The notes under the pieces were generated by a model that was not told the origin of the DNA, did not search any database, and saw only the letters and a program-made list of their open reading frames with translations. 64,000 nucleotides of DNA from Patescibacteria group bacterium (lineage in GTDB: Bacteria > Patescibacteriota > Microgenomatia > UBA1400 > PJMF01): assembly GCA_045541795.1 (NCBI GenBank), contig JAZQJV010000018.1:118236-182235 (forward strand), in the 5' to 3' direction. Shown here piece after piece: positions 1 through 50,370 of the stretch. The position numbers and the translations under genes are program-made. Within the stretch, counting starts at the first letter, position 1. The number at the start of each line of letters is the position of its first letter.

Positions 1-28
1 CTCAAATGTAGTGGCGGTAAACAACCCC

Positions 29-57
29 TTGACAAAACAAATATTTCTGGTATAATC
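29..57 (+). promoter_or_regulatory. Consensus sigma70 promoter: TTGACA, 17-nt spacer, TATAAT (TG-extended)
   Basis: Sequence ttgacaaaacaaatatttctggtataat is read directly. No annotated gene follows before the terminator at about 326-354. Confidence 0.55.
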
Positions 58-152
58 AGAGTTGTTCTTTGATATTGATTGCCGCTGCCGATTGCATGGC
101 GGTTTGGCGATCCGATAAAGACAAAATCTGGTTTTGCAGGAGGTGGCGGCCA

Positions 153-203
153 ATGATTGTGCGTTTGATGACGACTATGATTACAGATTGGGCGAACATC
201 TAG
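153..203 (+). CDS. Micro-ORF of 16 aa (MIVRLMTTMITDWANI) with a strong Shine-Dalgarno sequence (gcaggaggtgg) 6-7 nt upstream
   Basis: Read directly. It lies inside a promoter-to-terminator unit of about 300 nt. Function unknown (small peptide or sRNA). Confidence 0.2.
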   Translation: MIVRLMTTMITDWANI

Positions 204-325
204 CTCTCAAAAGAAGTGGGACGACAGATAGGAAAAATGCGCTTTTGGGCAGACTGATGGGCTCTACACTGTCAGTCTAGGAAGCAAAGCTGTACCATTG
301 CAAATTCGGAAATAAGGTTCAATTA

Positions 326-354
326 GCCCCGGAAATAATCCCGGGGCTTTTTTT
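326..354 (+). terminator. Rho-independent terminator: gccccgg, loop aaataat, ccggggc, then T7
   Basis: A perfect 7-bp GC stem followed by seven T residues. Confidence 0.7.
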
Positions 355-388
355 ACACAGATACAGGCAGGTAAAACACACAGGTTAA

Positions 389-565
389 GTGGGTAAAGAA
401 TTATCTAGTAATCGCACTGAACACGTAATTTATTTGCTTGACGAGCCAACCACTGGTTTGCATTTTGAGGATGTACAGCGATTGCTTTCGATTTTAAGTT
501 CGCTGGTAGGACAAAACTCCAAGTCATGGACAGGTAAGTTTTTGGTCACTGAATTGGCGCGTTAG
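389..565 (+). pseudogene. uvrA: UvrA C-terminal fragment, roughly a 58-codon remnant
   Basis: Translation ...[37 protein letters not shown]... carries the UvrA-specific [10 protein letters not shown] Walker-B region. The frame is closed by stops on both sides with no upstream part of the gene. Confidence 0.5.
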
Positions 566-834
566 TCGCAGAGAGTAATGTTTAGTTTTTGTGATGAATT
601 ACCCCGACCTTACGGTCGGGGTTATGGACAAATGTGATATGAATTATTTTGAACAATTATGTCTACTCAAAATTATAGTGACTACGCCCAGATTAACCTG
701 ATAACACCTATTGAATATGATCACTATTCAATTAGTTTGTTTAGGTTTTATCAATGTGAAAATTAATAAGTTGCCCAGCACGAGTTTGTTATAATCGGCT
801 TTAGGTTAATAATTTGTCTGGTCACCAGGCATAA

Positions 835-1374
835 GTGCCAACATTATTAACTGGAGGTTATATCACTTTTGCCTGGAAATCCATATGCGACCATCATGAC
901 TATAATCGTATTGATTTGCATGCCTTTAGACTGGACAATAGCTTTACTTATACAGTTTCACTTACAGTCAATTATGACAAGGTTAATCTTTTAGAGAAAC
1001 TGCCAGTCTTACCAAAGTTCGAACAATTATTTATAACTTTCAATCAACCACAAATGCTACTGACCGATACTTTATTGTGGCACGCTGATCGTTGTTACCA
1101 ATTTCAGGGACAAACATTCAATTATGTCCTCATCAGAGCACTGGTAAAAGCCAATGGAGAAATTCCCTGGAACGATCAGCTGCTGCTGATGTATGATCCT
1201 GGTCCTCTTCATCTAAGTAGCTCGAAAATAGATGATAGAAGTACTTTAATTTGTCGTGCTATAGATGACCTTAACTTGGAGCTCAAACAAAAACTTAAAA
1301 TGAATTTTACACCGATACACAGACGTAAAAATAAATTTATTAAATTTGATAAACAAATTATACTATCGACATAG
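835..1374 (+). CDS. Hypothetical protein in the AT-rich region
   Basis: ORF of 179 aa with no recognisable motif. Its low GC matches the surrounding island. Confidence 0.35.
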   Translation: MPTLLTGGYITFAWKSICDHHDYNRIDLHAFRLDNSFTYTVSLTVNYDKVNLLEKLPVLPKFEQLFITFNQPQMLLTDTLLWHADRCYQFQGQTFNYVLIRALVKANGEIPWNDQLLLMYDPGPLHLSSSKIDDRSTLICRAIDDLNLELKQKLKMNFTPIHRRKNKFIKFDKQIILST

Positions 1375-1469
1375 ACTCACTTAGCTGGAGTTACTCTAGG
1401 CTCAGTTTTTGCTTCTCTGGTAGTTTAATATCCCTGTCTAGAAATTAGTCGAGGCTATTAAACGACCGC

Positions 1470-1679
1470 ATGAGACAGAGCACAATAGTAGTACCAGCTC
1501 GCACCGACATCGGGAAAAAATATCGTACTAGCTACGACCCTATATCAGAGCAGGACGTTCACGATTTTATTGCTGCCGTTAAGGCAGATAGTGGATGGGT
1601 ATTGAAGTTTGATGAGGCAAAACAAACAGCCAATGATTTAATAGAGTTGGCCAAATTAGTCAATAAATATCAGGAATAA
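1470..1679 (+). CDS. Hypothetical small protein (69 aa)
   Basis: ORF only. It sits just upstream of the YhcG-like gene. Confidence 0.3.
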   Translation: MRQSTIVVPARTDIGKKYRTSYDPISEQDVHDFIAAVKADSGWVLKFDEAKQTANDLIELAKLVNKYQE

Positions 1680-1735
1680 CTGTCTTAAAAGTCTTGCATT
1701 TTTAATCAATTTGTGATATAAAGACCACATTAATT

Positions 1736-2824
1736 ATGACAAACACAAAAAAGATCCAGACAGTTACTAGTAACGATATGTCGATGTCTAATGATCAAGA
1801 GTATCGGGAATGGTTAGTCGACTTAAAAACAAGATATCAACATAGTCGCATTAAAGCATCTATAAAAATTAATTATGAGGTCATTTTTTATTACTGGTCT
1901 GTTGGTCGTGACATTGTGATTAAAAAAGCCGAATCAAAATGGGGTAGTGGTTTTTATGATAATTTGAGTCGCGATCTACGACGAGAATTACCTGGTATAC
2001 AGGGATTATCAAAAACAAATCTCAAATACATGAAGTACTTTTATGATCTTTTTCCAGATGTGTTTACTGATAAGTCAATTCGTCCACAAGTTGTGGACGA
2101 ATTGGAGCAAATACCTTGGGGACATATCCGATATATTATAGATAAGTGTCGCGGTGATCAACAAAAGGTGATATTTTTCATCAATAAGACCGTGGAAAAC
2201 AACTGGTCGAGAGCAATGCTGCTAAATTTCCTGGATACAGATCTTTACGAGAGGCAAGGGAAGGCGATTACGAATTTTACCAATAAGTTAGCTTCGCCTC
2301 AAGGAGAATTAGCTCAACAGCTTACCAAAGATCCTTACAGTTTTGACTTTCTTACTATGAGAGAAAACTATCAAGAAAAAGAGCTTAAGGATGCCCTGAT
2401 TGCTAATATTGAAAGATTTCTGCTGGAACTTGGCAAAGGTTTTGCTTATATGGGACGGGAATACCGCTTACAAATCGGTGAAACTGAAAAATTTATAGAT
2501 ATGCTCTTTTACAACACTGTCCTGCGTTGTTACGTGGTAGTAGAAGTCAAAGTGGAGAAATTTGAATCCGGACATTTAGGGCAATTGGGATTGTATGTGA
2601 CCGCGGTTAATCATCAGCTCAAAAACGAAACTGACAATCCCACTATCGGTCTGTTGATTTGCAAGAGCAAAGAGAATGTGGTGGCGAAATACTCGCTAGA
2701 AAGCATGGCGGTGCCGATCGGAATATCAGAATATGAGTTGCAAAAAATCTATCCCGCTGATTTCAAGAGTAGTTTGCCAACGATAGAGGAGATAGAGAAT
2801 GAGCTGGCTGATAATAACGATTAG
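1736..2824 (+). CDS. YhcG/DUF1016-family PD-(D/E)xK nuclease-like protein (copy 1)
   Basis: The N-terminal DUF1016-like region (YYWSVGRDIV...KAESKWGSGF...DLSRDL) and the C-terminal PD-ExK motif (FIDMLFYN...CYVVVEVK) are typical of the YhcG family. A paralog lies at 5609-6736. Confidence 0.65.
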   Translation: MTNTKKIQTVTSNDMSMSNDQEYREWLVDLKTRYQHSRIKASIKINYEVIFYYWSVGRDIVIKKAESKWGSGFYDNLSRDLRRELPGIQGLSKTNLKYMKYFYDLFPDVFTDKSIRPQVVDELEQIPWGHIRYIIDKCRGDQQKVIFFINKTVENNWSRAMLLNFLDTDLYERQGKAITNFTNKLASPQGELAQQLTKDPYSFDFLTMRENYQEKELKDALIANIERFLLELGKGFAYMGREYRLQIGETEKFIDMLFYNTVLRCYVVVEVKVEKFESGHLGQLGLYVTAVNHQLKNETDNPTIGLLICKSKENVVAKYSLESMAVPIGISEYELQKIYPADFKSSLPTIEEIENELADNND

Positions 2825-2845
2825 TAAAAATTAAGGTAATAACAT

Positions 2846-4273
2846 ATGTTCACACCTTTTGGCAAGAATCTCGACAATCTAAGTTTTGAAGACATTCAAA
2901 AATTTTGCGATAAAGGTGTTGCTGAAAATATTTATATTGATTACAAGAAAGAAATTAATCAGAAGAATGATCATCTTGCCAAAACTATTGCGTCCTTTGC
3001 TAATACACATGGCGGCTGGATAATAATTGGAGTAGAAGATAAGAATGATCGTCCAAACTCTCCATTTAACGGGATTGACTATACAGATGGAATAGAGTCT
3101 AGTATAACTACTATAATTGTTGACAATATTTATCCATATGTCGAAGTTACATCAAAGGTTATTGTCAACCATGATAATAAAAGAGCTTTTGTTGTAGTGT
3201 ATGTCCCAGAAAGTCATAAAACACCACATTGGATTAACAGCAGAAGGGATCTTTATATTAGAGCTAATACTAGAACAAAAACTGGCAGAGATGATATTAA
3301 GAATAAAAACGAAGACTTGGATATTTACGCCACTTCTGAAAATTGGGAATTCTTAAGAAATAAAAGGGAAAGGTCTCAACAACTGGCAATAGAATTGGAA
3401 ACAGCTTTAAATCGTTTGTTTCTATCATATAAAGATAAAGAAGAACGTTTGTGGTATCAAAATAACGAAAAAGTTAAAAATAATCCGTCGCTGCAAAGTA
3501 TAATATCTGAAGATATGGATACACTCGACTGTGCAGATCCAAGTATCACAACAATTAAAAATAGGCGAGAGTTCAGAAGCGAATGTTATCATGATAACAT
3601 TAGTATTATTGTCCAGCCAGTTTTCCCATCATACGCTATTTCTTCACCGCGTGATTTGAGAGAACACTATTCGTCTAACAGCGGTGCAAACCTCACTAAC
3701 GTTGGTTCACTTGACGAAAACTACAAACTTGATTATTTTCAAAACGGGATAGTAACTTTTTTTACTCCCGACAATAAGACAGGCAACCATTGCGCATTTT
3801 TTGCTCAAGACATCTTTGGTTCGTGCATGGTAAAACACAAGATAGTTCAACACAATCGAAAGAAGATTGATAACTACCAGGGTTATGAAGTGCCGCCAAA
3901 TAGTAACATTATTGACTTTGAATACTTGATAGTTTATATTGAACAATTTTTAAAATATGCATCAGTTTTTTATAAACAAATTGGTTATTTAGGCGAACTT
4001 AGACTTAAGGTGGTCATGAATGTGCCAGAATGGTCATATATGATAATTCATGATTCAACCAAGAATTTTCCGCTTGCATATAGTAATTCTGATAAATATT
4101 TTCTTTGGGAGAAAGTTTTTATTAATGCTGATTTTGTTAACGATCAAGAACGAAATAAAATACTAAATACTATGTATGAAAGTATTGGATTCTTTTTTAA
4201 TTGTGACGAAATTCCTAAACAAATAATTAATAATCTGAGAAAGAATCCAAATAATGCTAATGAGCAACTTTAA
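2846..4273 (+). CDS. AlbA_2 (Schlafen-like, divergent AAA-4) domain protein with an uncharacterised C-terminal region of about 350 aa
   Basis: The N-terminal motif TIASFANTHGGWIIIGVED matches the AlbA_2 DNA-binding domain signature. It lies 21 nt after the YhcG-like gene with an SD (aaggt), so a two-gene operon is likely. Confidence 0.6.
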   Translation: MFTPFGKNLDNLSFEDIQKFCDKGVAENIYIDYKKEINQKNDHLAKTIASFANTHGGWIIIGVEDKNDRPNSPFNGIDYTDGIESSITTIIVDNIYPYVEVTSKVIVNHDNKRAFVVVYVPESHKTPHWINSRRDLYIRANTRTKTGRDDIKNKNEDLDIYATSENWEFLRNKRERSQQLAIELETALNRLFLSYKDKEERLWYQNNEKVKNNPSLQSIISEDMDTLDCADPSITTIKNRREFRSECYHDNISIIVQPVFPSYAISSPRDLREHYSSNSGANLTNVGSLDENYKLDYFQNGIVTFFTPDNKTGNHCAFFAQDIFGSCMVKHKIVQHNRKKIDNYQGYEVPPNSNIIDFEYLIVYIEQFLKYASVFYKQIGYLGELRLKVVMNVPEWSYMIIHDSTKNFPLAYSNSDKYFLWEKVFINADFVNDQERNKILNTMYESIGFFFNCDEIPKQIINNLRKNPNNANEQL

Positions 4274-4299
4274 CTTCCCGTCTCAAAAACTCCCCAATC

Positions 4300-4365
4300 A
4301 TGCTATAATCAACCTCAAGTAACTGGGTTCGGATTTCCCGCCAGAAACCACCAAAAAATAGGATA
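4300..4365. repeat. Direct repeat copy 1: TATAAT box, 15 nt, then conserved 30-mer gggttcggatttcccgccagaaaccacc
   Basis: Aligns over about 65 bp with 6835-6902. The 30-mer (4325-4352) is identical apart from one base. Confidence 0.7.
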
Positions 4366-4423
4366 TTGAAGTACGCAAATTATATCCATATAAAAACGAT
4401 ATTTTAAGCAAATTATTTGGTAT

Positions 4424-5602
4424 TTAATCATTATTGTTAATGTTTAAAAGTAATTGTAATCTTTTCATGATTTCATCGAATGTTATTATTATATTTCTGG
4501 AAACACTCTTTCTGAATAAGTTGAACGATCTTTCTTGTTCTTCAAGAAGTCCTGATTTGTTACCGATAATAATTATTCCTAATGGATCAAGAGCATTCAA
4601 GCGGTTATCTTCATAATCTTTTCCAATAAGAGTTGAAAAATTATCACTCGCAATTCTAATTTGATTTTCTAGTTGAACTATCGCACCACTCAATTCGTCA
4701 GACATGGAATAGCACACATTCTCTCCAACGGCATCTGAATTGCCTCTATATTGATGTCCAATAATGGCACTTTGCGGTGTTTTAATTTCAATAACTGCAA
4801 AGCTTTTATTTGAAAGATTTTGCAAAAGAAAATCAGCGGCGACTCCTCCTTGGCCGTTTCTTCCACGACTGTTCTTTCCTCCTAGATATGTTTCGCCATT
4901 CAAATAACAGACTGGACAATAAAACAAACTCTCAAAAATCCACTGATTTTCTGTGAAGAATGCTTGCCAAAAGTTTTCTTTTTGGTTATTATTCATATTT
5001 TTCGCAATTGTATTAATTGCATTCTGCAATTTGGCTAGTAATATAATATTTTCTAATACTCTGATGTTTCCTTTTCCTAAATCTCTTAACTTGGTAATAA
5101 CCATTTCCTTATTTTTAATATCGCCAATTTGCAATAAAACACTTTCTATATTTCCTTCTCCAATAGATATTGTTGTGGTTCCAAATTTAATACCGTTTTC
5201 ATTTAGAGTCTCTCTAATTAACGGTAAATGCTCAAAGAGATTTTTCATGGCTTCACCATCAAGGTTGAGATCATAAAATTCTCCTTTTCTTAACTTAGTA
5301 ACAGATAGGCCTTTATAACTTTGCCAGTTGTCATTAATTCCTTTTCTTTCCCATCTGAAACCTCCTCGCAATGGTTTGTCAGTTTGAGATGGGTCTACCC
5401 ACTTTGGGTAAAAAAGTAATCTTGTGCTTTCAGTTTCTTTTAGTATAATTGGGGAAATATCAGCGGTTTTATTGGAAGTAGATTTTATTGTTATATCTTT
5501 TGATTCTTTCTGTTTGTCTGTAAATCCCTTGCGAGGTAGCGTGAAATCTATTTCTCCTGAAATATTGCTAAAATCATATTTTGGAGTCATGGTGGCTTTC
5601 AA
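4424..5602 (-). CDS. Shedu-like (DUF4263) PD-(D/E)xK nuclease
   Basis: Of 392 aa. The C-terminal half carries WQAFFTENQWIFESLF, ADFLL and VIEIKTP (a D...ExK motif), and ends in NIIITFDEI, as DUF4263/SduA-type proteins do. It lies 6 nt downstream of YhcG-like copy 2 in the same orientation. Confidence 0.5.
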   Translation of the reverse strand: MKATMTPKYDFSNISGEIDFTLPRKGFTDKQKESKDITIKSTSNKTADISPIILKETESTRLLFYPKWVDPSQTDKPLRGGFRWERKGINDNWQSYKGLSVTKLRKGEFYDLNLDGEAMKNLFEHLPLIRETLNENGIKFGTTTISIGEGNIESVLLQIGDIKNKEMVITKLRDLGKGNIRVLENIILLAKLQNAINTIAKNMNNNQKENFWQAFFTENQWIFESLFYCPVCYLNGETYLGGKNSRGRNGQGGVAADFLLQNLSNKSFAVIEIKTPQSAIIGHQYRGNSDAVGENVCYSMSDELSGAIVQLENQIRIASDNFSTLIGKDYEDNRLNALDPLGIIIIGNKSGLLEEQERSFNLFRKSVSRNIIITFDEIMKRLQLLLNINNND

Positions 5603-5608
5603 TCAAAA

Positions 5609-6736
5609 TTACCTATTTGCTTCTAGCAACTTTTTCTCTATCTCCTCTATCGTCGGCATCGTTCCTTCCACCTTTTGCGGATACAACTTCTCCAGTTCGT
5701 ACTCCGAAATTCCCAATGGTTGATTGCTAGATTCCAAAGCATACTGAGCGATTAAATTATCTTTTTGCTTGCAAATGAGCAAACCGATAGTCGGATTATC
5801 TCGTCCTTCTTTTTGTAAAAGGTGATTGCAAGAAACCACGTAACCGCCAAGTTGCCCCAAATCGGCAAAATCAAATTCGCCAATTTTCACTTCAACCACA
5901 ACGTAACAAGACAACTGTAAATTATAGAAAAGCAAATCAATAAATTTTTCTTTCTCGCCGATTTGCAGTCGATACTCTTTTCCCACATACGCGAAGCCCG
6001 TGCCAAGTTCTAATAAAAATTTGGTTATATTTTCTAGCAGGGCATCTTTTAATTTACGTTCATTGTATTTATCGGTAATACCAGTAAAAGCAAAATTATA
6101 TGGATCTTTTGTTAATTCCTGAGCTAAATCGCTAGTAACATTGGGTAAGGTTTTGCCAAAATTCGTCAATGCTTTTCCTCGTCGATCATAAAGATCGGTT
6201 TCAATAAAATTGAGTAGCATATCTCGGCTCCAACCATTTTCTATTGTTTGGTGAACAAAAAAGAGTGCTTTTTGTGGTTCTGTTTTGAATTTATCAATTA
6301 ACAGCTTATGATGGCCCCACGGAACAGAAAAAATGTCGCTTTCAATTTTCTCAATGACTTGCTGAGTAATTACATTACTTTCTATTTGCTCCCCAACTTG
6401 GGGAGCAATTTCGAAATATTGATGGTAAAGTATATAAAAGTTTTTCATGTACAACAAATTTGTCGGCGAAAAACACGTTGCGTCAGGATTGAGAGTTTTA
6501 AGGTCTCGGCTGAGATTTTTCATGAAACCACTGCTCCATTTACTTTCGGCTTTCATTACCACAATGTCTCTGCCCAAATCATAGTAAAAACGAAGCATTT
6601 CCCGATTAACTTTTACTGCTGCTCTAACTTGGCTCAAGCGATAACGAGAAGAAAGCTTCCCAATCCACGAGGCATAATTTTCATCTAGAATTGTTAGTGA
6701 CTGAACTTGTTTTGCAACCTGTTTTTTCTCTGTCAT
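5609..6736 (-). CDS. YhcG/DUF1016-family PD-(D/E)xK nuclease-like protein (copy 2)
   Basis: Clearly paralogous to 1736-2824 (RFYYDLGRDIVVMKAESKWSSGF; FIDLLFYN...CYVVVEVK). It is the first gene of the minus-strand two-gene operon. Confidence 0.65.
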   Translation of the reverse strand: MTEKKQVAKQVQSLTILDENYASWIGKLSSRYRLSQVRAAVKVNREMLRFYYDLGRDIVVMKAESKWSSGFMKNLSRDLKTLNPDATCFSPTNLLYMKNFYILYHQYFEIAPQVGEQIESNVITQQVIEKIESDIFSVPWGHHKLLIDKFKTEPQKALFFVHQTIENGWSRDMLLNFIETDLYDRRGKALTNFGKTLPNVTSDLAQELTKDPYNFAFTGITDKYNERKLKDALLENITKFLLELGTGFAYVGKEYRLQIGEKEKFIDLLFYNLQLSCYVVVEVKIGEFDFADLGQLGGYVVSCNHLLQKEGRDNPTIGLLICKQKDNLIAQYALESSNQPLGISEYELEKLYPQKVEGTMPTIEEIEKKLLEANR

Positions 6737-6834
6737 AGTGGCTATTACTTATAGCACAATAACGCTATTTTGTCAATACTGATAATTAATTATTATTGGC
6801 ATTTATTTTCAATTCTTGCAAAAACAACTTCATA

Positions 6835-6902
6835 CTGTTATAATCAGTTTCAAATAATTGGGTGCGGATTTCCCGCCAGAAACCACCCCAAAAAGATGGG
6901 AT
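6835..6902. repeat. Direct repeat copy 2: TATAAT box, 15 nt, then conserved 30-mer (6860-6887)
   Basis: Same spacing and sequence as copy 1. Here it serves as promoter and leader of the zinc-ribbon/TM2 gene. Confidence 0.7.
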
Positions 6903-6922
6903 TACTGCGATGAAAGTGAAAC

Positions 6923-7256
6923 ATGACAGATGAAAAAACAAAATACTGTAAACATTGCGGTTCGCTTATTGATGTAGAATTGCATAATATGCCCGAAGTG
7001 TGGCAAGCAGGTCGAACAAGTAAAAGCCGAGCTTCCAAATGTAGTGATCAATAACAATAACACCAATTCGAATATAAACTATGCTGGTGCTGTGGGGAGC
7101 GGGCGGCCTATCAATAAGTGGATAGCTTTGGGTTTATGTCTTTTTCTGGGCATATTCGGTGCTCATAAGTTTTATGAAGGAAAGATTGGCATGGGAATAT
7201 TGTATTTGTTTACATTTGGTTTGTTTAGTCTTGGTTGGTTTTTAGATATTTTTTAA
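6923..7256 (+). pseudogene. Zinc-ribbon plus TM2-domain membrane protein split by an apparent +1 frameshift
   Basis: Frame A reads MTDEKTKYCKHCGSLIDVELHN.... The TM2 frame reads ...CPKCGKQVEQVKAELPNVV then INNNN...GAHKFYEGKIGMGILYLF (TM2 domain). The two CxxC halves of one zinc ribbon sit in different frames around position 6989. Confidence 0.5.
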
Positions 7257-7355
7257 TCCTAACAAAGCCTAATCCTTATTACATATAATACTTTTACATT
7301 TGCGTTTTTATTATAACTACGTTATAATAACACAAACTTTAAGGAAAATATAAAC

Positions 7356-8429
7356 ATGAAAAATCATCGAAAATTCCATCCTCGCATTATTGTCAATATC
7401 ATCTGTCTTTTTTCATTGGCATTATCTCACATTATTTTTTCGCTACCGATTAAAATAATTGATACAGTTTATGCCGTCGAGCGTGAAACTGTCACTGTGA
7501 GCCGTGTGATTGATGGTGATACAATCGTTTTGAATGATGGGCGAAAGGTTAGATATATTGGAATTGATACACCAGAAACAGTTCATCCAACAAAAAATGT
7601 GCAGTGTTTTGGGAAACAAGCCAGTAACAAAAATAGAGAATTAGTCCTTGGTAAAACTGTGGAACTGGAAAAAGATATCAGTGAAACTGATCGCTATGGA
7701 CGTTTACTCAGATATGTATATTTGGATGGCGTCATGATTAATCATAAATTAGTCGCTGAAGGTTATGCCACAACCGTAACCTATCCTCCAGATGTTAAGT
7801 ATAAAGAAGAATTCTCCAAAGCTCAGGCGCAGGCAAGACAAGCAAGACTTGGGCTATGGGGTAATGAATGCAACGAAAGCAGCAGCACTCACGCATCCTC
7901 AAACAACAATGCTAGCTCAAATACAAATAAAATGGATTCGTCAAGCACATCGTCATCATCTCAAAACAACAAAACTCAAAATGACCATGAAGGCAACCAA
8001 GCTTCTACTCAACCAACTAACACTAGCGCACAAAAATGTCCATCAAATTGTAGTGAGGCCAAAAGCATGGGAATGGTTAACATTACACCGTCGCATCCAT
8101 GCTGGCAAGAAAAATTTGATGGCGATAAAGATGGCGTGGGTTGTGAAAGTGACAACCGGTCTACCAATACAAAAACAACTAACAAATCCAATAATGTCAA
8201 TAAACAGACCAGTGCTACGCCGGCACCCACGCCAGTGCCAAGTCGCGCCCCAACGCCAGAACCAACCCCACCGCCTACGTCAGTGCCAGCTCCAGCTGCG
8301 CCAACCCAATCTTGTCCAAATAACTGTACCCAAGCAAAGGCAATGGGAATGGCCAATATGACACCTTCTCATCCTTGTTGGCAATCTAAATTTGACCGAG
8401 ATAAAGACGGTATTGGTTGCGAAGACTAG
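7356..8429 (+). CDS. Secreted thermonuclease (SNase-like) with two C-terminal Excalibur calcium-binding domains
   Basis: SNase motifs are RYIGIDTPE and DRYGRLLRYVY. Two repeats of C..C...MG..N.TPSHPCW..KFD.DKDG.GCE follow. An N-terminal TM or signal segment is present. Confidence 0.75.
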   Translation: MKNHRKFHPRIIVNIICLFSLALSHIIFSLPIKIIDTVYAVERETVTVSRVIDGDTIVLNDGRKVRYIGIDTPETVHPTKNVQCFGKQASNKNRELVLGKTVELEKDISETDRYGRLLRYVYLDGVMINHKLVAEGYATTVTYPPDVKYKEEFSKAQAQARQARLGLWGNECNESSSTHASSNNNASSNTNKMDSSSTSSSSQNNKTQNDHEGNQASTQPTNTSAQKCPSNCSEAKSMGMVNITPSHPCWQEKFDGDKDGVGCESDNRSTNTKTTNKSNNVNKQTSATPAPTPVPSRAPTPEPTPPPTSVPAPAAPTQSCPNNCTQAKAMGMANMTPSHPCWQSKFDRDKDGIGCED

Positions 8430-8438
8430 AAAGTAAAA

Positions 8439-9119
8439 ATGTCACAAAAAGATAATAGCAAACATTCTTGCAGAATAATCATGGCCGCATTGCTAGTGCT
8501 TCTAAGCATTGCATTGCTGCATAAATCTTTTTTTGCTGCCGCCTTCACTATCTGCTACGCATATCTCATCTCGCCACTATCAATTCAATTGGTAAGTAAA
8601 ATATGTAAGAAAGAAAATGAGAAATGGCTATATTCAACCATGACTTTTATTTTTGCTCTTTGCTGGATGACCACAATTCAAACTGGTCAGCCACAAATGG
8701 ATAATGTGTTAACGCAAAATAGTGAAAAAAACGCATCGCTAGAGAATGCGTCAACACAAAATAATGAAAAAATCGCTTCACTAGAAAAAGAGCTCCAATC
8801 AGTTAAGAACGAAAGAGATGAAATTCAAGCAAACAACCAAAAAAGAGCCATTTCAGCTGCCAAATCATATTTGGAATACAGTCCAATGTCGAGCCGAGAG
8901 TTGATTAAGCAACTCGAGTTAGAAGAATTTTCTCATGAAGACGCAGCATACGGTGTAGAGCATGCTGATATCAATTGGAACGATCAAGCATCACGGTCAG
9001 CAGTCCTCTTTATTGAGTTTGCTAATCCGTCAACCGAAGAATTAAAAAAACAACTTGAGTACGAAGGTTTCACAAGCAACGAAATAAAATTCGCCATTGA
9101 GCATAATAGTAATGGGTAA
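8439..9119 (+). CDS. Membrane-anchored protein with two C-terminal Ltp-type repeats (phage superinfection-exclusion lipoprotein family)
   Basis: The repeats AKSYLEYSPMSSRELIKQLELEEFSHEDAAYGV and ...STEELKKQLEYEGFTSNEIKFAIEH match the Ltp repeat pattern (YL..S...LI.QLEYEGF...A.YAV). An N-terminal TM segment and a coiled-coil repeat region are present. Confidence 0.55.
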   Translation: MSQKDNSKHSCRIIMAALLVLLSIALLHKSFFAAAFTICYAYLISPLSIQLVSKICKKENEKWLYSTMTFIFALCWMTTIQTGQPQMDNVLTQNSEKNASLENASTQNNEKIASLEKELQSVKNERDEIQANNQKRAISAAKSYLEYSPMSSRELIKQLELEEFSHEDAAYGVEHADINWNDQASRSAVLFIEFANPSTEELKKQLEYEGFTSNEIKFAIEHNSNG

Positions 9120-9148
9120 ATGACTCTATTGCTTCCAGTAAGGAAAGT

Positions 9149-9490
9149 ATGCCATCTACCAAAAGTTACCTTAATCACCTTCTAACTCAATTCTCGCAGT
9201 TGGATGATATTTCTTACCGCTCGATGATGGGGGAGTATATCATTTATTTCAAAGGCAAAGTAGTAGGTGGAATTTATGATGATCGATTTTTGGTCAAGAC
9301 AACAAAATCTGCACTCGCGTTGATGCCAAACACAAGCAAAGAATTACCATATCCCGGTGCGAAAGAAATGTTGTTGGTAGACGATACGGGAGACAAAGTA
9401 TTTTTACGCGAGCTGCTGACCGCGATATATGAGGAGCTGTCAGTGGTAAAGAAAAAAGAAAGCACATTAAAACGTTTATTAACGAATTGA
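9149..9490 (+). CDS. TfoX N-terminal domain protein
   Basis: MMGEYIIYFKGKVVGGIYDDRFLVK matches the TfoX_N motif (MFGGYGLY..G..FALV.DD.LYLK). Confidence 0.55.
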   Translation: MPSTKSYLNHLLTQFSQLDDISYRSMMGEYIIYFKGKVVGGIYDDRFLVKTTKSALALMPNTSKELPYPGAKEMLLVDDTGDKVFLRELLTAIYEELSVVKKKESTLKRLLTN

Positions 9491-9502
9491 CATTCATTGT
9501 CC

Positions 9503-10204
9503 TCATCTTTGACGTCTCGCTCTCTCCATATACTCTCTTTGCACCCGCATAAATAATTCCTTATCTGCCAAAAGCGTCCGGATCTCATTTAAAAAACGCT
9601 CGTACTCCGGATCAGAAAAAAAGTATTTCGCATAGCCGCCCTCACCAAATTTTTCTTTCAGGTGTTGCCAACTTCTCACAAACAATTGCTCGTCACTAAA
9701 ATCCGGATGTAAATTTTTACCATACACAAAACTTCGATACAAACAATCTTCTACGCTCGTATTTCTGTCCGCCGTGGACACAATTTTCCCGTACACGCTC
9801 CGGGGCTCGTGATTGCTTGAAGCACGATGATCTTCGATTGCCTCTTTAATCAGTTTTAATTGTTTACCGCTAAAAAAATCAGGCAAATGCTTATCCTCAC
9901 TCATCATCCGCGCAGAAATAATCTCATGCTTGGCTGGATCAATGTGATGTCCCAGATCATGATAAGCAGCCACAGTGTAGACAATGTCTAAGTTAACGTC
10001 GGTCAGTTTTTGCGCCAAGTTAATACTTCTTTCAATGACATATTTAATGTGTTTTAAATTATGAGCTGGCTCATTTTGAGCGTACTGCGGGAAAACATTT
10101 TGCTGGATGTATGTTTGTAATTTTCTATTGACGGTAGGATAAAAATTATTTTCTAACATAAACATTACTATATTATAACACGAGCAGACATTTTGAAAGC
10201 TCAA
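9503..10204 (-). CDS. HD-domain phosphohydrolase
   Basis: HD motif (TVAAYHDLGHH). Confidence 0.6.
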   Translation of the reverse strand: MSFQNVCSCYNIVMFMLENNFYPTVNRKLQTYIQQNVFPQYAQNEPAHNLKHIKYVIERSINLAQKLTDVNLDIVYTVAAYHDLGHHIDPAKHEIISARMMSEDKHLPDFFSGKQLKLIKEAIEDHRASSNHEPRSVYGKIVSTADRNTSVEDCLYRSFVYGKNLHPDFSDEQLFVRSWQHLKEKFGEGGYAKYFFSDPEYERFLNEIRTLLADKELFMRVQREYMERARRQR

Positions 10205-10269
10205 AAATATAGCGTCCAGTTTTTACAACTTTCGCTCATTTCACCTTACCGGTATGGTATAATACCCCT

Positions 10270-10695
10270 ATGCAAAAATCAAATAATCTTATTTCAATTA
10301 TTTTGTGTGTGATCGCGGTGGTGAGTCTCGCTCTCAATGTCTACTGTGTCAATCAAAAACACACTCAGCCGGCGCCATCAAGTCAACTTGCCGAGGCACA
10401 GGCGGCCTACAAACTTTACATCGTCATCCCAGATAGTGTCACTGATACAGATAATTACATCCGTGAGCTGGAAACAATACTTGCCAATCGTGTCCCCGGC
10501 TACACGATGTATCCCACTCGTGGCGGCTCGCATGAAGACGACGGCAGCATGAGTTATCAGACCACTTTGGTCTGCGAGCTTTACGGCACTGATAAACAAA
10601 CTGTCACCCAAATTGCCCATCAAGTGATGACCAGTTTTAATGTGAACAGTGTGCCGGTGGCAACTCTTAGTTCACAGTGGGAAATAATTCGTTGA
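10270..10695 (+). CDS. Hypothetical secreted or membrane-anchored protein
   Basis: N-terminal hydrophobic segment. A TGnTATAAT box ends 6 nt before the ATG, so the mRNA looks leaderless. Confidence 0.4.
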   Translation: MQKSNNLISIILCVIAVVSLALNVYCVNQKHTQPAPSSQLAEAQAAYKLYIVIPDSVTDTDNYIRELETILANRVPGYTMYPTRGGSHEDDGSMSYQTTLVCELYGTDKQTVTQIAHQVMTSFNVNSVPVATLSSQWEIIR

Positions 10696-10735
10696 CGATC
10701 ATTACTGTGTAAAACTGGTACAAAACGCTACAGGT

Positions 10736-11833
10736 ATGGTGCAAACATTGATTAGGCGCTATTGGCAAACTGCATTCGCTGTTGTCCTCGTGTGTCTGTC
10801 ACTGTGGCAGCTGAGGTCTTTGTGGACTCTTCACCAATTAGATTTTCACGTTTATTATCAAGCTGGTAAAGCTTGGCGAGATGGCGGTGATCCTTATGGC
10901 GATCTAGGTCTTGGTGAAAGTTTGACCTTCCTTTATCCCGCCCCTGCTTTGCTTATCTTTTGGCCGCTTTCATTTTTGGATCTGGAGACAGCACAAAAAG
11001 TGTGGTTGCTCATCAATCTGAGTTTGATTTTTGCCAGTGTTTATTTGTGTCTCACGCTCCATCGCACGAAAATTGCCTTAGCATCAGTAATGCTGTTTTA
11101 TGCTTTTGTCCTGCAAACATTTAGCGTCAAGTATAATCTTGGCATGGGGCAGATTAATGTTTTAGTGTTATTTTTGGTTTTATCCACCTGTCACTTGCTT
11201 TCTCGCCAGCATACAAGGTTAGCGGGTTTCTTTTTAGGGCTGGCGGGCGTCGTTAAAATCTGGCCTTTGGCCTTGTTGCCGTTTTTGTTATCTAAAAAAC
11301 AGTGGACAGTGTCTATAGTCGCCATTCTCACATTTTTGCTGCTTCAATTGCCTTGGTGGCAGACGACGGCGCGCAGTTTTGCCGCTGTCAGCGCGCACTT
11401 ACATACGGCAGGGTCAATCAGCGATGACGTCTACGACCAGTCGTTTATTGTTGCCCTTAATCGTCTGATGAATTGGTCGGGATGGAAAATAGTAGTGCCG
11501 GCCGCGATGATCGCCATTTACGCCTTTGTAAGCTATCGCTTTGGCCAATGCTTACCAATTGATGAAGTTTGCTTGTTTCTAATCATTCCCATCATTTTTG
11601 CGGCGTCGCCGGTGTACGCTCACTATCTGATTTATCTTTATCCGTGCTTATATCTATTACTCCGGCGCCATTGGCTGGCTTTGCTGTGTGCTTGGTTGTC
11701 GGTGCAAATTAAAATTGGTACGGATACAGTGTGGTATTTACGCTCGTATTATGCATGGTGGGCAGCATTGCTTTGTATTATAGCATTGGTTTATGGCGGC
11801 AGCAAAAAGAATTGGCATCGACTTCCCGTATAA
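10736..11833 (+). CDS. Polytopic membrane protein, DUF2029/GT87-like glycosyltransferase
   Basis: N-terminal DFHVYYQAG....PYGD....FLYPAPALL motif and more than 9 TM helices. Confidence 0.45.
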   Translation: MVQTLIRRYWQTAFAVVLVCLSLWQLRSLWTLHQLDFHVYYQAGKAWRDGGDPYGDLGLGESLTFLYPAPALLIFWPLSFLDLETAQKVWLLINLSLIFASVYLCLTLHRTKIALASVMLFYAFVLQTFSVKYNLGMGQINVLVLFLVLSTCHLLSRQHTRLAGFFLGLAGVVKIWPLALLPFLLSKKQWTVSIVAILTFLLLQLPWWQTTARSFAAVSAHLHTAGSISDDVYDQSFIVALNRLMNWSGWKIVVPAAMIAIYAFVSYRFGQCLPIDEVCLFLIIPIIFAASPVYAHYLIYLYPCLYLLLRRHWLALLCAWLSVQIKIGTDTVWYLRSYYAWWAALLCIIALVYGGSKKNWHRLPV

Positions 11834-12024
11834 ATTTTCTCCTGGTGTCGCGTTTCGGGTTTGTACCTAGGTAATTCCAATTTCCTTTTCGCATTTTTTA
11901 TGGTATAATCACGCATCTTACTCACTTTCACGGTCAGATCATCACGGTTTTGCTCGTGGAGGCGGGTGAAATCAGATCTTTGACAAGTGAAGTGAAATCA
12001 TACATCCTTAAAGGAGGAATTTCC

Positions 12025-14049
12025 ATGAAGTTGAAGTTTTGGGTTTTGAGTTTGGCAGCAGTGTTGTGTTTCCCCGCTCTTGCGTCTGGTGCGAGCATCG
12101 AACAGATCTTGGCTAGCATGAGTACTAGCGATAAGATCTGTCAGCTCCTGATCCCAGCCTACCGCAAGACGGCCAGTAATGACGCCACTGTCTTAAGCAG
12201 CGACGCGGCGGCACTCATCAGTCAGTATCCTTTTGGTGGTTTTATCGTTTACGGCGAAAATCTTGTCGACAATGACGCCGGCGTCCGGTTCATCCATGAC
12301 GTCCAACGTGCTAATATCAGCGCTGATACCGGCCGGCCGCAATTGCTCGTAATGACCGATCAGGAAGGAGGCCTAGTCTATAGGCTTACTCACGGCACAA
12401 GCGGCATCTCGCCGATGGCTATGGGTGCGGCTAGAGACAGCACTGCCACTCAGACGATCGCCAAAATCCTAGGCACTGAAGTGTCGGCCCTCGGCATTAA
12501 TTGTAACCTCGCTCCAGTACTCGACGTCGTCACCAATCCGCGCGGTTATATCGGCCTGCGGGGTTTCGGCATTGATCCGCAGCTGGTAGCCGATCAAGCC
12601 AGTAGCTATCTGCGCGGCCTGCGGGAGGCGGGTGTCCTAGGGGCAGTCAAACATTTCCCCGGCACAGGCAGCGCTCAGGAAAACACAGATGGGGCCAATT
12701 TGCCCGTCGTCATTAGTAAGACCCTTGAAGAGCTAGAGTCTTGCGATCTCATTCCTTTCCGCCAGGTGATCAAGCAGGGCCTGGTAGACATCGTGATGGT
12801 TTGCAATGACAGTTTTTCAAGTATAGAAACGCGCCAATTTACCGGCTCTGACGGCCAGCAATATGCCCTCCCTGCTTCAGTTTCCCCGGCGATTATCAAT
12901 GACCTGCTGCGCTGTGGGCTCGGCTTTGACGGCCTGGTGCTCACTGATGCACTCTTGGGCACAGTCATGGCCGCACAGTTTAGTGCCGTGCAAGTCTTAG
13001 AGTTGGCTTTGCAGGCAGGCGCCGACATGATGCCGTACGCTTTAGACCTCAACTCAGTCGCGAGTGTGGCGGCATTCCAGCAGGCCCTGGAGACTTTCAC
13101 TGCACGGGTGGACGCGGATCAACAATTGCAAGGTCTACTAGACACTGCTGTCAGGAGGATTTTGACGTTTAAAAGTCGCCATGAACTCCTGACTCCGTAT
13201 GCTCGCTCAGATTCTTGGGCGGCTAGTCAGGCACAGACGGTACTCCAGAATGTCAGCAACCAGGCTCATCACGACCTCCAGTGGCCGGTTGCTTTGAGTG
13301 CGGTCACGCTGGTGGAAAACCGTAATCAGGCTTTGCCGCTTAGCGGTGATGAGAGAGTGGCCATCCTCTATTATTACGCTAGTCAGGAAGCATCAGTGCA
13401 ACTTGCTCTTGACCGGCTTGTAGCTGACGGTCAGCTGACAAGCAGCCAGGCGGCAGACGTCCTTAATCTAGACGTCCACGACGAAAACTTAAGCGAACTG
13501 CTCACCGGCGTGGACACCGTAGTCATTTTAAGCTCTGTCTATTATGAATCGGAGTTGAGCCCAGATTCTCCCTCTCCTTACAGCGACGAAATCAGTATCG
13601 TGCTGCCACTCCTGTCAGAACTCGCTGGTCGTGGAGTCAAAATCATTCACGCCAGTTGTCATCTTCCTTACGACATCGGGCTGTATCTGGGGCGAGTGGA
13701 TGCCATCCTGGCTTGCTATTTGGCCAACGGGATCTCCCTTCCTATCACCACACCAGATAATCAGCCTCGTTACGGCGTTATGGTACCGGCACTCGTTTAC
13801 AAGCTTTTTGATCAGCGGGGAGATTTTTCCGCCCGACTGCCCGTAGACATTTACACTATTAATGGCGGGCAGTATCAGCTAGACGATGTCCTTTTGTCTC
13901 GCGGCTGGGGTCTGACACTGGCTGGTGACGTCATCACTGATCCGGTAGCGACTCACCAGAGCTCTAGCGGCGGCTGTAATGCTTTGTCGGGATTGTGGCT
14001 GTGGACGGGCATTCTTGTTTTCGCCTCTAGCAAAAAGTACCACTGCTGA
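12025..14049 (+). CDS. Glycoside hydrolase family 3 (beta-N-acetylhexosaminidase/beta-glucosidase-like), secreted
   Basis: KHFPGTGSAQENTDG is a GH3 motif. Signal peptide MKLKFWVLSLAAVLCFPALASGAS. A strong SD (aaggagg) sits before the ATG at about 12025. The track ORF 11950 start is probably an upstream extension. Confidence 0.7.
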   Translation: MKLKFWVLSLAAVLCFPALASGASIEQILASMSTSDKICQLLIPAYRKTASNDATVLSSDAAALISQYPFGGFIVYGENLVDNDAGVRFIHDVQRANISADTGRPQLLVMTDQEGGLVYRLTHGTSGISPMAMGAARDSTATQTIAKILGTEVSALGINCNLAPVLDVVTNPRGYIGLRGFGIDPQLVADQASSYLRGLREAGVLGAVKHFPGTGSAQENTDGANLPVVISKTLEELESCDLIPFRQVIKQGLVDIVMVCNDSFSSIETRQFTGSDGQQYALPASVSPAIINDLLRCGLGFDGLVLTDALLGTVMAAQFSAVQVLELALQAGADMMPYALDLNSVASVAAFQQALETFTARVDADQQLQGLLDTAVRRILTFKSRHELLTPYARSDSWAASQAQTVLQNVSNQAHHDLQWPVALSAVTLVENRNQALPLSGDERVAILYYYASQEASVQLALDRLVADGQLTSSQAADVLNLDVHDENLSELLTGVDTVVILSSVYYESELSPDSPSPYSDEISIVLPLLSELAGRGVKIIHASCHLPYDIGLYLGRVDAILACYLANGISLPITTPDNQPRYGVMVPALVYKLFDQRGDFSARLPVDIYTINGGQYQLDDVLLSRGWGLTLAGDVITDPVATHQSSSGGCNALSGLWLWTGILVFASSKKYHC

Positions 14050-27791: not shown

Positions 27792-27847
27792 GCTTGCATT
27801 TTGCGCGCAAACGTTATATAATATTAAAAAGTTGTCTGAAAGGGGTT

Positions 27848-40563: not shown

Positions 40564-40564
40564 T

Positions 40565-50128: not shown

Positions 50129-50280
50129 CTTTTTACCGCAAAATATGCGGTAATAACCAATTTACCTGCGTTCACCAGCAATATTCATCAGTCAAAATCT
50201 ATCATAATTTGCTACCACCACCTGCAAAAAATACCAATATAACAGCACATTTTTCTCTTATAATGACTAAAAGTGACGGC

Positions 50281-50314: not shown

Positions 50315-50370
50315 CAAACCCCTCACTAAATTGCCCCGCCAACTTCAAGAATTTGTGCTATAATAACCTC

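What the first reader, a model, noticed from the sequence alone, without database searches (positions are those of the whole stretch)
600..9500. AT-rich accessory island packed with nucleases and anti-phage-type genes
Base composition drops to roughly 30-40% GC here, against about 50-55% in the housekeeping flanks. Three PD-(D/E)xK nucleases (two YhcG-like, one Shedu-like), an AlbA_2 protein, a secreted SNase with Excalibur domains, an Ltp-repeat protein, TfoX_N and an HD hydrolase are all concentrated in this stretch. It is bounded on the left by a uvrA remnant. The pattern points to horizontal acquisition of a defense and DNA-handling island.
Basis: partly seen in the sequence, partly recalled or inferred. 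Interest (0 to 1): 0.7.

Follow-up and report, generated by a model that had tools for sequence, protein, structure and literature searches.

The report
AT-rich anti-phage nuclease island
A 9-kb AT-rich stretch next to a broken uvrA gene is a mosaic defence island carrying a Shedu nuclease, a Schlafen-type RNase, two DUF1016 nucleases and a secreted nuclease with an Ltp-type surface protein; it is a clear but fairly ordinary example of a known kind of accessory region.

Summary
Window 600-9528 has 36.2% GC against 47.9% for the rest, about 10 sd below same-size windows, and its tetranucleotide usage is about 14 sd off.

The right boundary is exact. A sibling contig (95.5% nt) loses homology at 9528, inside the last codons of the HD gene. 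The HD hydrolase is therefore core, not island.

A more distant relative (L086) has an intact uvrA 3' end and tRNA-His at the same locus, followed by the same YhcG1/Schlafen module. It lacks the Shedu/YhcG2 module and the SNase/Ltp/TfoX_N module.

The island is a patchwork of three tightly packed operons:
- YhcG1 then Schlafen (AlbA_2)
- YhcG2 then SduA (Shedu)
- a frameshifted TM2 gene, then SNase, Ltp and TfoX_N

All nucleases keep their catalytic motifs. A 75-nt direct repeat brackets the Shedu module.

No integrase, tRNA or restriction-modification genes occur in the window copy. Only Shedu is an experimentally validated defence family. DUF1016 (PDC-S02) is a candidate family, and the secreted nuclease part could serve DNA scavenging instead.

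Verdict: a real, horizontally shaped defence hotspot and a new member of a known kind, of modest interest.

The parts
392..562 (+). uvrA 3' remnant: 57 codons with an internal deletion of about 46 codons. It marks the left edge of the island.
   Evidence: Translation. Aligns to the intact UvrA C-terminus of relative L086. No other uvrA-like sequence occurs in the window.
601..622 (+). GC-rich hairpin just after the uvrA remnant stop codon, probably the old uvrA terminator. The AT-rich DNA starts here.
   Evidence: Read from the sequence. GC drops from 42-44% to 35% here.
835..1374 (+). orf179, function unknown. The C-terminal ~118 residues are conserved in L086; the N-terminal part is unique to the window.
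   Evidence: No Pfam, PADLOC or PHROG hit. Homology with L086 starts at window ~1017. dN/dS 0.16.
1470..1679 (+). 69-aa ORF of doubtful status.
   Evidence: No family hit. The L086 counterpart carries an internal stop.
1736..2824 (+). YhcG1: a DUF1016_N + YhcG_C PD-(D/E)xK nuclease of the PADLOC candidate family PDC-S02. Motif residues D255, E270, K272.
   Evidence: Pfam 7.6e-60 and 4.3e-34. PADLOC 3.3e-150. Motif positions. 89% aa identity to the L086 orthologue, dN/dS 0.09.
2846..4273 (+). Schlafen/AlbA_2 protein: an N-terminal Schlafen-type nuclease domain with E27-D32-K34, plus a ~300-aa C-terminal domain of unknown fold family. It starts 21 nt after YhcG1.
4284..4358 (+). Junction repeat D2, copy a: a TGnTATAAT -10 box followed by the conserved core GGGTKCGGATTTCCCGCCAGAAACCACC.
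   Evidence: the repeat finder family D2, 79% identity between copies. The core occurs twice in 64 kb against 0 expected. An orthologous copy ends the shared segment in L086.
4424..5602 (-). SduA (Shedu immune nuclease), made of SduA_N + SduA_C with D257, E272, K274. The likely start is the ATG at 5590, 18 nt after the YhcG2 stop codon.
   Evidence: Pfam 9.2e-22 and 7.4e-12. PADLOC SduA 1.3e-68. PDB 8TI8 (B. cereus SduA) 1.1e-36 over both domains. Motif positions. Gene junction.
5609..6736 (-). YhcG2: the second DUF1016/YhcG nuclease (PDC-S02), with D267, E282, K284. It lies directly upstream of SduA.
   Evidence: Pfam 7.5e-57. PADLOC 5.3e-150. 53% identical to YhcG1. Motif positions.
6819..6893 (+). 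Junction repeat D2, copy b. It carries a promoter-like site (TTGCAA-17-TGtTATAAT) that faces the TM2/SNase/Ltp/TfoX_N genes.
6923..7256 (+). Zinc-ribbon + TM2-domain gene broken by one frameshift near 6975-6985. It is either a pseudogene or a sequencing error.
   Evidence: Three-frame translation. After joining the frames, Pfam gives TM2 4.3e-17 and Zn_ribbon_3 1e-6.
7356..8429 (+). Secreted or anchored thermonuclease: an N-terminal hydrophobic signal/anchor, an SNase domain with catalytic residues kept, S/T/N/P-rich linkers, and two Excalibur Ca-binding motifs.
   Evidence: Pfam SNase 2e-28 and Excalibur 3.8e-21. PDB staphylococcal nuclease 9e-24. NCBIfam NucI 2.4e-40, below its cut-off. Motif positions.
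8439..9119 (+). Membrane-anchored protein with two Ltp repeats (superinfection-exclusion type). It starts 9 nt after SNase.
   Evidence: Pfam Lipoprotein_Ltp 6.5e-19, two stretches. PHROG 4980 'superinfection exclusion' 6.1e-28. Homologues in 107 phage records.
9149..9490 (+). Small TfoX_N-like protein (113 aa). It has the N-domain only and is the last gene of the variable segment.
   Evidence: Pfam 3.7e-7, 30.6 bits against a cut-off of 30.1.
9520..9530 (.). Right junction of the island. Homology with the sibling contig starts at 9528, inside the last codons of the HD gene.
   Evidence: blastn of L081 382-3050 against window 9528-12187 gives 95.5% identity, with nothing to the left. Sequences.

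Best explanation
Window ~575-9528 is a variable, horizontally shaped defence hotspot in an uncultured bacterium. It sits between a decayed uvrA gene and a core HD-hydrolase gene and is built from independent modules.

(1) YhcG1 then Schlafen/AlbA_2. This pairs a PD-(D/E)xK DNA nuclease of the candidate family PDC-S02 with a Schlafen-type RNase. The RNase's E-D-K site would cut tRNA when its uncharacterised C-terminal domain senses infection.

(2) YhcG2 then SduA. This is a Shedu nuclease of the B. cereus type. It is held inactive by its N-terminal domain and cuts invading DNA once activated.

(3) A cell-surface operon comprising a broken TM2 gene, a secreted Ca-dependent SNase, an Ltp-type protein of the kind that blocks phage DNA injection, and a small TfoX_N-like protein.

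Shown here: the compositional anomaly, the domain content, intact catalytic motifs, tight operon spacing, exact synteny breaks in two relatives, and purifying selection on the module shared with L086.

Inferred: anti-phage function, co-transcription, and module gain or loss by recombination at the 75-nt D2 repeat.
For: Composition: 36.2% against 47.9% GC, about 10 sd. Tetranucleotide distance 0.224 against 0.095 +/- 0.009.

Defence models: SduA 1.3e-68, PDC-S02 about 1e-150 twice. Pfam domains are all above gathering cut-offs.

Catalytic motifs:
- SduA aligns over both domains to the solved B. cereus Shedu 8TI8 and keeps D257/E272/K274.
- The SNase catalytic and Ca-binding motifs are intact.
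- Ltp matches the phage superinfection-exclusion PHROG at 6e-28.

Variability:
- Sibling L081 (95.5% nt) breaks at 9528.
- Relative L086 has uvrA, His_Phos, tRNA-His, then the same orf179C/YhcG1/AlbA_2/D2 segment at 82.4% nt. It lacks the SduA-YhcG2 and SNase-Ltp-TfoX parts.
- In L086 the module is also AT-rich: 35.5% against 49-53% in the neighbouring core genes.
- dN/dS is 0.09 for YhcG1 and 0.08-0.24 for Schlafen.

Context of relatives:
- The closest SduA relatives (at most 54% identity) sit inside type I R-M operons, and YhcG relatives sit next to hsdM on plasmids.
- A Schlafen relative follows a TIR gene.

The rest of the window is housekeeping with no real defence hits.
Against: - The window copy has no integrase, transposase, tRNA or clean att/TSD boundaries.
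- The left side cannot be seen beyond ~390 nt.
- Only two short relative contigs exist, so presence/absence statistics are impossible.
- The YhcG1/AlbA_2 module is shared with L086 at the same locus, so part of the island may be old and vertically inherited.
- DUF1016/PDC-S02 has no experimental defence evidence that I could find.
- The SNase/TfoX_N/TM2 part has an equally natural reading as DNA scavenging or uptake.
- The TM2 gene is frameshifted here and AlbA_2 is frameshifted in L086, which shows decay.
- No function was tested.
Confidence: 0.75

Rival explanations
1. The right-hand third (TM2, SNase, Ltp, TfoX_N), and perhaps the whole region, serves extracellular DNA degradation, nucleotide scavenging and DNA uptake rather than phage defence. 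A secreted nuclease would feed a reduced-genome organism, and the TfoX-like protein would link it to competence.
For: SNase has a signal/anchor, intact catalytic residues and two Excalibur Ca-binding domains, as extracellular nucleases do. There is a TfoX_N hit. An HD phosphohydrolase lies next door. PADLOC gives no real defence assignment to Ltp or TfoX.
Against: TfoX_N is marginal (30.6 against 30.1 bits) and lacks the C-domain of true TfoX/Sxy. Ltp matches phage superinfection-exclusion families. HD is core and not part of the variable segment. The left two thirds are unambiguous intracellular immune-type nucleases. This reading does not explain Shedu or Schlafen.
Confidence: 0.25
2. The region is the decayed remnant of an integrated mobile element (prophage or integrative island) that entered at tRNA-His downstream of uvrA. 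It has since lost its integrase, its tRNA-proximal end and most of its genes.
For: In L086 a tRNA-His lies directly upstream of the shared module. Ltp, SNase and HD have PHROG relatives. YhcG homologues occur as passengers in six viral contigs and two phage records. The uvrA deletion and the frameshifted genes show ongoing decay. A Schlafen relative lies near a serine recombinase.
Against: There are no integrase, structural, replication or excision genes in 1-12000. No tRNA or tRNA fragment repeat was found in the window. There is no DNA match to any phage or plasmid record beyond the YhcG genes.
Confidence: 0.12
3. The island is what is left of a type I restriction-modification locus whose hsdM/S/R genes were lost, leaving only the accessory 'passenger' nucleases that usually ride inside such operons.
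For: The nearest SduA relatives are all embedded hsdM-SduA-hsdS-hsdR. YhcG relatives on plasmids overlap hsdM/hsdS annotations. The literature reports Shedu within R-M loci (602 of 5,499) and Schlafen proteins with unknown C-domains associated with R-M.
Against: No hsd fragment, methylase or helicase remnant was detected anywhere in 1-12000 by Pfam or PADLOC. L086 has no hsd genes at the locus either.
Confidence: 0.08
4. The AT-rich segment is native, vertically inherited DNA whose low GC reflects weak selection or gene-specific constraints, or it is an assembly chimera. In either case it is not horizontal acquisition.
For: Part of the region (YhcG1/AlbA_2) is at the same locus in a relative at divergence comparable with the adjacent uvrA fragment (79-82% nt). 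The source is a metagenome-type contig.
Against: The deviation is about 10 sd in GC and about 14 sd in tetranucleotide usage. Synteny breaks exactly at the compositional boundary in the sibling. The uvrA-module adjacency is reproduced in an independent assembly, which argues against a chimera. The module is AT-rich relative to neighbouring core genes in L086 too. Synonymous divergence of the module (dS 0.46-0.70; 1.28 on a 66-codon stretch) is mostly lower than that of the adjacent uvrA codons, which are saturated. The uvrA figure rests on only 40 codons.
Confidence: 0.05

Closest known systems
Shedu (SduA) single-gene anti-phage nuclease, B. cereus type (PDB 8TI8; Gu et al. bioRxiv 10.1101/2023.08.10.552793; Loeff et al. 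bioRxiv 10.1101/2023.08.10.552762)
   Same: Same two-domain layout (SduA_N + DUF4263/SduA_C). It aligns over both domains at E 1e-36 and keeps the D...ExK motif. It lies in a defence-gene cluster.
   Different: It is only about 30% identical to the studied protein. It sits directly behind a DUF1016 gene rather than alone or inside an R-M operon, as its closest relatives do. The host is an uncultured lineage. Activity is untested.
PADLOC candidate PDC-S02 / E. coli YhcG family (DUF1016_N + YhcG_C PD-(D/E)xK nucleases)
   Same: Full-length matches at about 1e-150, both domains present, D/E/K motif present. As in plasmids, the family appears among defence and R-M genes.
   Different: Two diverged paralogues (53% identity) are present in one island, each as the first gene of a two-gene operon with a different immune nuclease. 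No defence phenotype is known for the family.
[quoted passage not shown]
Ltp superinfection-exclusion lipoprotein of Streptococcus thermophilus phage TP-J34 (from my own knowledge) and PHROG 4980
   Same: Two tandem Ltp repeats at the C-terminus of a surface-exposed protein. The PHROG 'superinfection exclusion' match is 6e-28.
   Different: It is anchored by hydrophobic helices without a canonical lipobox, has a coiled-coil-like spacer, is chromosomal without any prophage around it, and is coupled to a secreted nuclease gene.
Defence islands / integration hotspots next to tRNA and core genes (Makarova-type defence islands; from my own knowledge)
   Same: Clustered immune genes, atypical composition, different cargo in relatives, and a tRNA gene at the site in one relative.
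   Different: It is small (9 kb) and lacks a recombinase and R-M or CRISPR genes. One flanking core gene (uvrA) has been destroyed.

Membership tests
Shedu (SduA) | DUF4263/SduA_C nuclease domain above family threshold | tested here: met
   Pfam SduA_C 78.3 bits (cut-off 27). PADLOC SduA 1.3e-68.
Shedu (SduA) | PD-(D/E)xK catalytic residues (B. cereus motif II D249 and the ExK motif) | tested here: met
   D257, E272, K274 align with 'VDFL...IEIKTP' of 8TI8. The deposited mutant 8TI9 has this E changed to A.
Shedu (SduA) | N-terminal regulatory/sensor domain | tested here: met
   Pfam SduA_N 45.8 bits. Residues 34-156 align to 8TI8 residues 4-127.
Shedu (SduA) | Confers phage resistance as a single gene; oligomeric activation | not testable with these tools
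   Needs expression and phage challenge.
PDC-S02 / YhcG (DUF1016) | DUF1016_N plus YhcG_C architecture with a D...ExK motif | tested here: met
   Both domains are present in both paralogues. D255/E270/K272 and D267/E282/K284. PADLOC about 1e-150.
PDC-S02 / YhcG (DUF1016) | Demonstrated anti-phage activity | not testable with these tools
   The family is only a PADLOC candidate. No functional paper was found.
Prokaryotic Schlafen nucleases | AlbA_2/Schlafen fold | tested here: met
Prokaryotic Schlafen nucleases | E-D-K catalytic triad | tested here: met
   E27-x4-D32-x-K34 has the same spacing as CbCash E17/D22/K24. E27 and K34 are at least 90% conserved in 59 homologues, and D is the consensus at position 32.
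Prokaryotic Schlafen nucleases | Recognisable sensor or partner (Csx15/CARF, NACHT, ATPase, pAgo, R-M) | tested here: not met
   The C-terminal domain has no Pfam hit in 58 of 59 homologues and no convincing PDB fold match. No such partner gene is present in the island.
Genomic / defence island | Atypical composition relative to the host | tested here: met
Genomic / defence island | Variable presence in related genomes | tested here: met
   L081 breaks at 9528. L086 shares one module only. Only two relatives were available.
Genomic / defence island | Mobility signatures: integrase, flanking tRNA, direct repeats at the ends | tested here: not met
   There is no integrase or tRNA in 1-12000 and no end-to-end repeats. 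A tRNA-His is present at the locus only in L086. An internal 75-nt repeat brackets one module.
Ltp-type superinfection exclusion | Two Ltp repeats on a surface-exposed protein | tested here: met
   Pfam shows two stretches. PHROG 4980 covers 20-178 of 181 positions. The N-terminal hydrophobic segments were read from the sequence.
Ltp-type superinfection exclusion | Lipoprotein signal (lipobox) and prophage location | tested here: not met
   No canonical L-[AS]-[GA]-C lipobox was seen by eye in residues 1-90. There are no phage genes around it.
TfoX/Sxy competence regulator | TfoX_N plus TfoX_C domains | tested here: not met
   Only TfoX_N is present, at 30.6 bits (cut-off 30.1). The protein is 113 aa with no C-domain.

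The most novel reading that the evidence does not exclude
DUF1016/YhcG is not a stand-alone nuclease here. Instead it is a shared upstream partner, for example a DNA-damage or foreign-DNA sensor or a licensing factor, that forms two-gene systems with interchangeable effectors. These would be YhcG+Schlafen and YhcG+Shedu, analogous to the two-component KELShedu system. In this reading the 75-nt D2 repeat is the recombination site through which such cassettes are swapped.
Probability: 0.1. Interest if true: 0.55.

Novelty: new member of a known kind. Interest (0 to 1): 0.3.

Why it matters
The region is a clean, well-bounded example of a defence hotspot in a poorly sampled, uncultured lineage, for which the databases hold only two related contigs. 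It shows immune nucleases that usually ride inside type I R-M operons (Shedu, DUF1016, Schlafen with an unknown C-domain) assembled without any R-M genes.

It offers two natural test cases. One asks whether DUF1016 co-operates with a downstream effector. The other concerns a full-length Schlafen protein with a confident model and an unassigned putative sensor domain.

It also documents loss of uvrA at the insertion site. None of this changes current concepts, so the value is as a catalogue entry and a source of candidates for experiments.

Tried and rejected
- Genome-contig scan with the flanking GH3 protein gave only relatives at 38% identity or less in Actinomycetota and Chloroflexota.
- Exact look-ups of window proteins and of the 100%-identical P0006 failed. 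The source contig (NCBI, 288,690 bp) could not be fetched, so the DNA left of the window is unknown and the organism could not be named. The listing of cluster members gave no names.
- The D2 core (22-mer with two degenerate positions) had 0 hits in metagenome contigs and viral contigs. There is therefore no evidence that it is a widespread recombination site.
- Viral scans with Ltp and SNase found no relatives.
- DNA search of the island against plasmids and phages matched only pieces of the YhcG genes.
- The first AF2 run of the Schlafen protein, with 5 sequences, failed (pLDDT 48.7). The second run, with 59 sequences, worked.
- The C-terminal domain got no convincing PDB match.
- Test of YhcG pairing: none of 6 viral loci with YhcG has SduA or Schlafen nearby. 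SduA relatives and remote Schlafen relatives are not next to YhcG.
- Rfam found nothing in 1-1800 beyond chance.
- A second 'SduA' PADLOC hit elsewhere in the window (27788-28243) is just a response-regulator receiver domain.
- I suspected by eye that orf179 is a winged-helix regulator, but Pfam gave no support.

Full report
OBSERVATION

The base-composition drop is real and large. Window 600-9528 is 36.2% GC against 47.9% for the remaining 54 kb. Same-size windows elsewhere have mean 47.9%, sd 1.2% and minimum 45.6%. The composition-normalised tetranucleotide distance of the segment to the rest is 0.224, against 0.095 +/- 0.009 (maximum 0.120) for controls. GC3 of the island genes is 25-42% against 45-58% in flanking genes.

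All domain calls were reproduced with Pfam:
- Two DUF1016_N+YhcG_C proteins (1736-2824 +, 5609-6736 -).
- SduA_N+SduA_C (4424-5602 -).
- SLFN_AlbA_2 (2846-4273 +).
- SNase with two Excalibur domains (7356-8429 +).
- Two Ltp repeats (8439-9119 +).
- A marginal TfoX_N (9149-9490 +).
- HD (9503-10204 -).

PADLOC gives SduA 1.3e-68 and the candidate family PDC-S02 at about 1e-150 for both YhcG proteins.

The uvrA remnant at 392-562 encodes 57 residues of the UvrA C-terminus with an internal deletion of about 46 residues. The other 37 large ORFs of the window are housekeeping genes: rpsD, rpoA, rplQ, IF-2, NusA, DnaG, LepA, enolase, Pgm and others. Their few PADLOC hits are trivial domain sharing. 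The concentration of immune-type nucleases in this stretch is therefore genuine.

BOUNDARIES AND RELATIVES

This lineage is very rare in public data. The flanking GT87 protein has only two close relatives among 5.8 billion proteins.

The first relative, L081, is a 3-kb JGI contig carrying the 92%-identical GT87. It aligns to window 9528-12187 at 95.5% nt identity and has no similarity to the left of 9528. The break lies in the last codons of the HD gene, which is 233 aa in the window and 271 aa in the sibling.

The second relative, L086, is a 6.5-kb contig of MAG GCA_017431295.1. It was found through the 82%-identical AlbA_2 protein. L086 carries, in order:
- an intact uvrA 3' end (79% nt to the window remnant);
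- a histidine-phosphatase gene;
- tRNA-His;
- a 3.3-kb segment 82.4% identical to window 1017-4347, covering the orf179 C-part, YhcG1 and AlbA_2, and ending inside the D2 element;
- unrelated genes.

L086 lacks SduA-YhcG2 and the SNase/Ltp/TfoX_N genes. In L086 the shared segment is also AT-rich: 35.5% against 49-53% for the adjacent uvrA and phosphatase genes.

The shared genes are under purifying selection. dN/dS is 0.09 for YhcG1, 0.08-0.24 for the Schlafen protein and 0.16 for the orf179 C-part. AlbA_2 carries a frameshift in L086.

The site downstream of uvrA is therefore a long-lived hotspot whose cargo differs between lineages. The independent assembly also rules out a chimeric join between uvrA and the module.

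ANATOMY

The island consists of tightly packed operons.
- YhcG1 and the Schlafen gene are 21 nt apart, with an AAGG ribosome-binding site.
- YhcG2 and SduA, on the other strand, are 18 nt apart if SduA starts at the ATG at 5590.
- These two operons converge on a shared terminator-like hairpin region at 4360-4420.
- SNase, Ltp and TfoX_N follow each other with gaps of 9 and 29 nt. They are preceded by a zinc-ribbon/TM2 gene broken by one frameshift.

A 75-nt direct repeat (D2; 4284-4358 and 6819-6893, 79% identical) contains a TGnTATAAT box and a 28-nt core that is nearly identical in the two copies. It brackets exactly the SduA-YhcG2 module. The core occurs nowhere else in the window. Its orthologue in L086 marks the end of the shared segment. 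This fits module gain or loss by recombination at D2, but the sequences beyond D2 in L086 and the window are unrelated, so a precise insertion event is not demonstrated. The core has no match in the metagenome or viral collections.

There is no integrase, transposase or tRNA in window 1-12000.

COMPONENTS AND LIKELY MECHANISM

SduA. It aligns over both domains with the solved B. cereus Shedu (8TI8, E 1e-36) and keeps D257/E272/K274. The deposited mutant 8TI9 carries the E-to-A change at the equivalent position. By homology it should be an auto-inhibited oligomeric DNA nuclease released by its N-terminal domain on infection (bioRxiv 10.1101/2023.08.10.552793 and 10.1101/2023.08.10.552762).

Its closest relatives (at most 54% identity; some are labelled Parcubacteria or Saccharibacteria) are all embedded in hsdM-SduA-hsdS-hsdR operons. 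This association is already reported for 602 of 5,499 Shedu genes.

YhcG proteins. Both keep a D...ExK motif. Relatives are common on plasmids (524 records), often overlapping hsdM or hsdS annotations. No defence phenotype is published for this family.

Surface operon. SNase keeps its catalytic and Ca-binding residues and has a signal/anchor. Ltp matches the phage superinfection-exclusion family PHROG 4980 at 6e-28.

I infer three layers of function: DNA cleavage (Shedu, possibly YhcG), tRNA cleavage (Schlafen), and a cell-surface layer (SNase and Ltp). The surface layer may equally serve DNA scavenging.

COMPARISON AND NOVELTY

Each part is a member of a known family, and the whole is a defence island. 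Four features are less usual:
- There are no R-M genes, although three 'R-M passenger' families are present.
- Two diverged DUF1016 paralogues each head a two-gene operon with a different immune nuclease.
- An internal repeat brackets one module.
- uvrA has been destroyed at the edge.

I tested the idea that DUF1016 is a functional partner. The YhcG1-Schlafen pair is conserved as a unit in L086. However, remote Schlafen and SduA relatives and six viral YhcG loci show no such pairing. I rate this reading at about 10%.

VERDICT

The region is a new member of a known kind, with interest 0.3.

Noticed in passing
window 29-352: A perfect sigma-70-type promoter (TTGACA, 16 nt, TGgTATAAT) is followed about 270 nt later by a strong intrinsic terminator (325-348). 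This forms an orphan transcription unit left of the uvrA remnant. It has no Rfam match and its fold z-score is -2.76. It could be an sRNA, a tiny ORF or another gene remnant.
   Followed up: partly
window 6923-7256: A zinc-ribbon + TM2-domain gene is interrupted by a single frameshift near 6975-6985. It is either a pseudogene or an assembly error.
   Followed up: partly
window 4284-4358 and 6819-6893; L086 4740-4792: A 75-nt direct repeat with a -10 box and a 28-nt conserved core brackets the Shedu/YhcG2 module and ends the segment shared with L086. Copy a would drive transcription antisense to SduA. There are no matches in the public metagenome or viral collections.
   Followed up: partly
L086 1323-1398 and 3290-4698: The relative has a tRNA-His directly upstream of the shared module, a classic island integration site. 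Its AlbA_2 gene is split by a frameshift into 76 + 412 aa.
   Followed up: partly
window 9503-9530; L081 204-381: The core HD gene has different C-termini in the two siblings (233 against 271 aa), because the synteny break falls in its last codons. Which version is ancestral is unknown. The 233-aa form matches the full length of PHROG 3921.
   Followed up: partly
window 392-562: uvrA is reduced to a 57-codon fragment, and no other uvrA-like sequence is present in the 64-kb window. Whether the genome has lost nucleotide excision repair could not be checked.
   Followed up: no
window 50035-50781: A 248-aa ORF of the Phage_holin_4_2 family coincides with the only other marked GC dip in the window (40.8% at 50-51 kb).
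   Followed up: no
window 27788-28243: A 151-aa response-regulator receiver protein hits a PADLOC SduA model (6e-8). The match is only to the receiver N-domain of a Shedu subtype, so this is a false defence hit.
   Followed up: yes
window 40472-45725: Two large overlapping ORFs (1221 and 572 aa) have no Pfam domain at all.
   Followed up: no
window 11950-14049: The GH3 glycosidase is the most GC-rich gene nearby (54%). Its best public relatives, at 38% identity or less, are in Actinomycetota and Chloroflexota. It may itself be an older acquisition.
   Followed up: no
L082-L085 (relatives of SduA): In several uncultured genomes SduA is inserted between hsdM and hsdS of type I R-M operons, together with variable extra genes (Fic, Bro-N, DUF3800, PhD/ParE). 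These operons act as carriers for accessory defence genes.
   Followed up: partly
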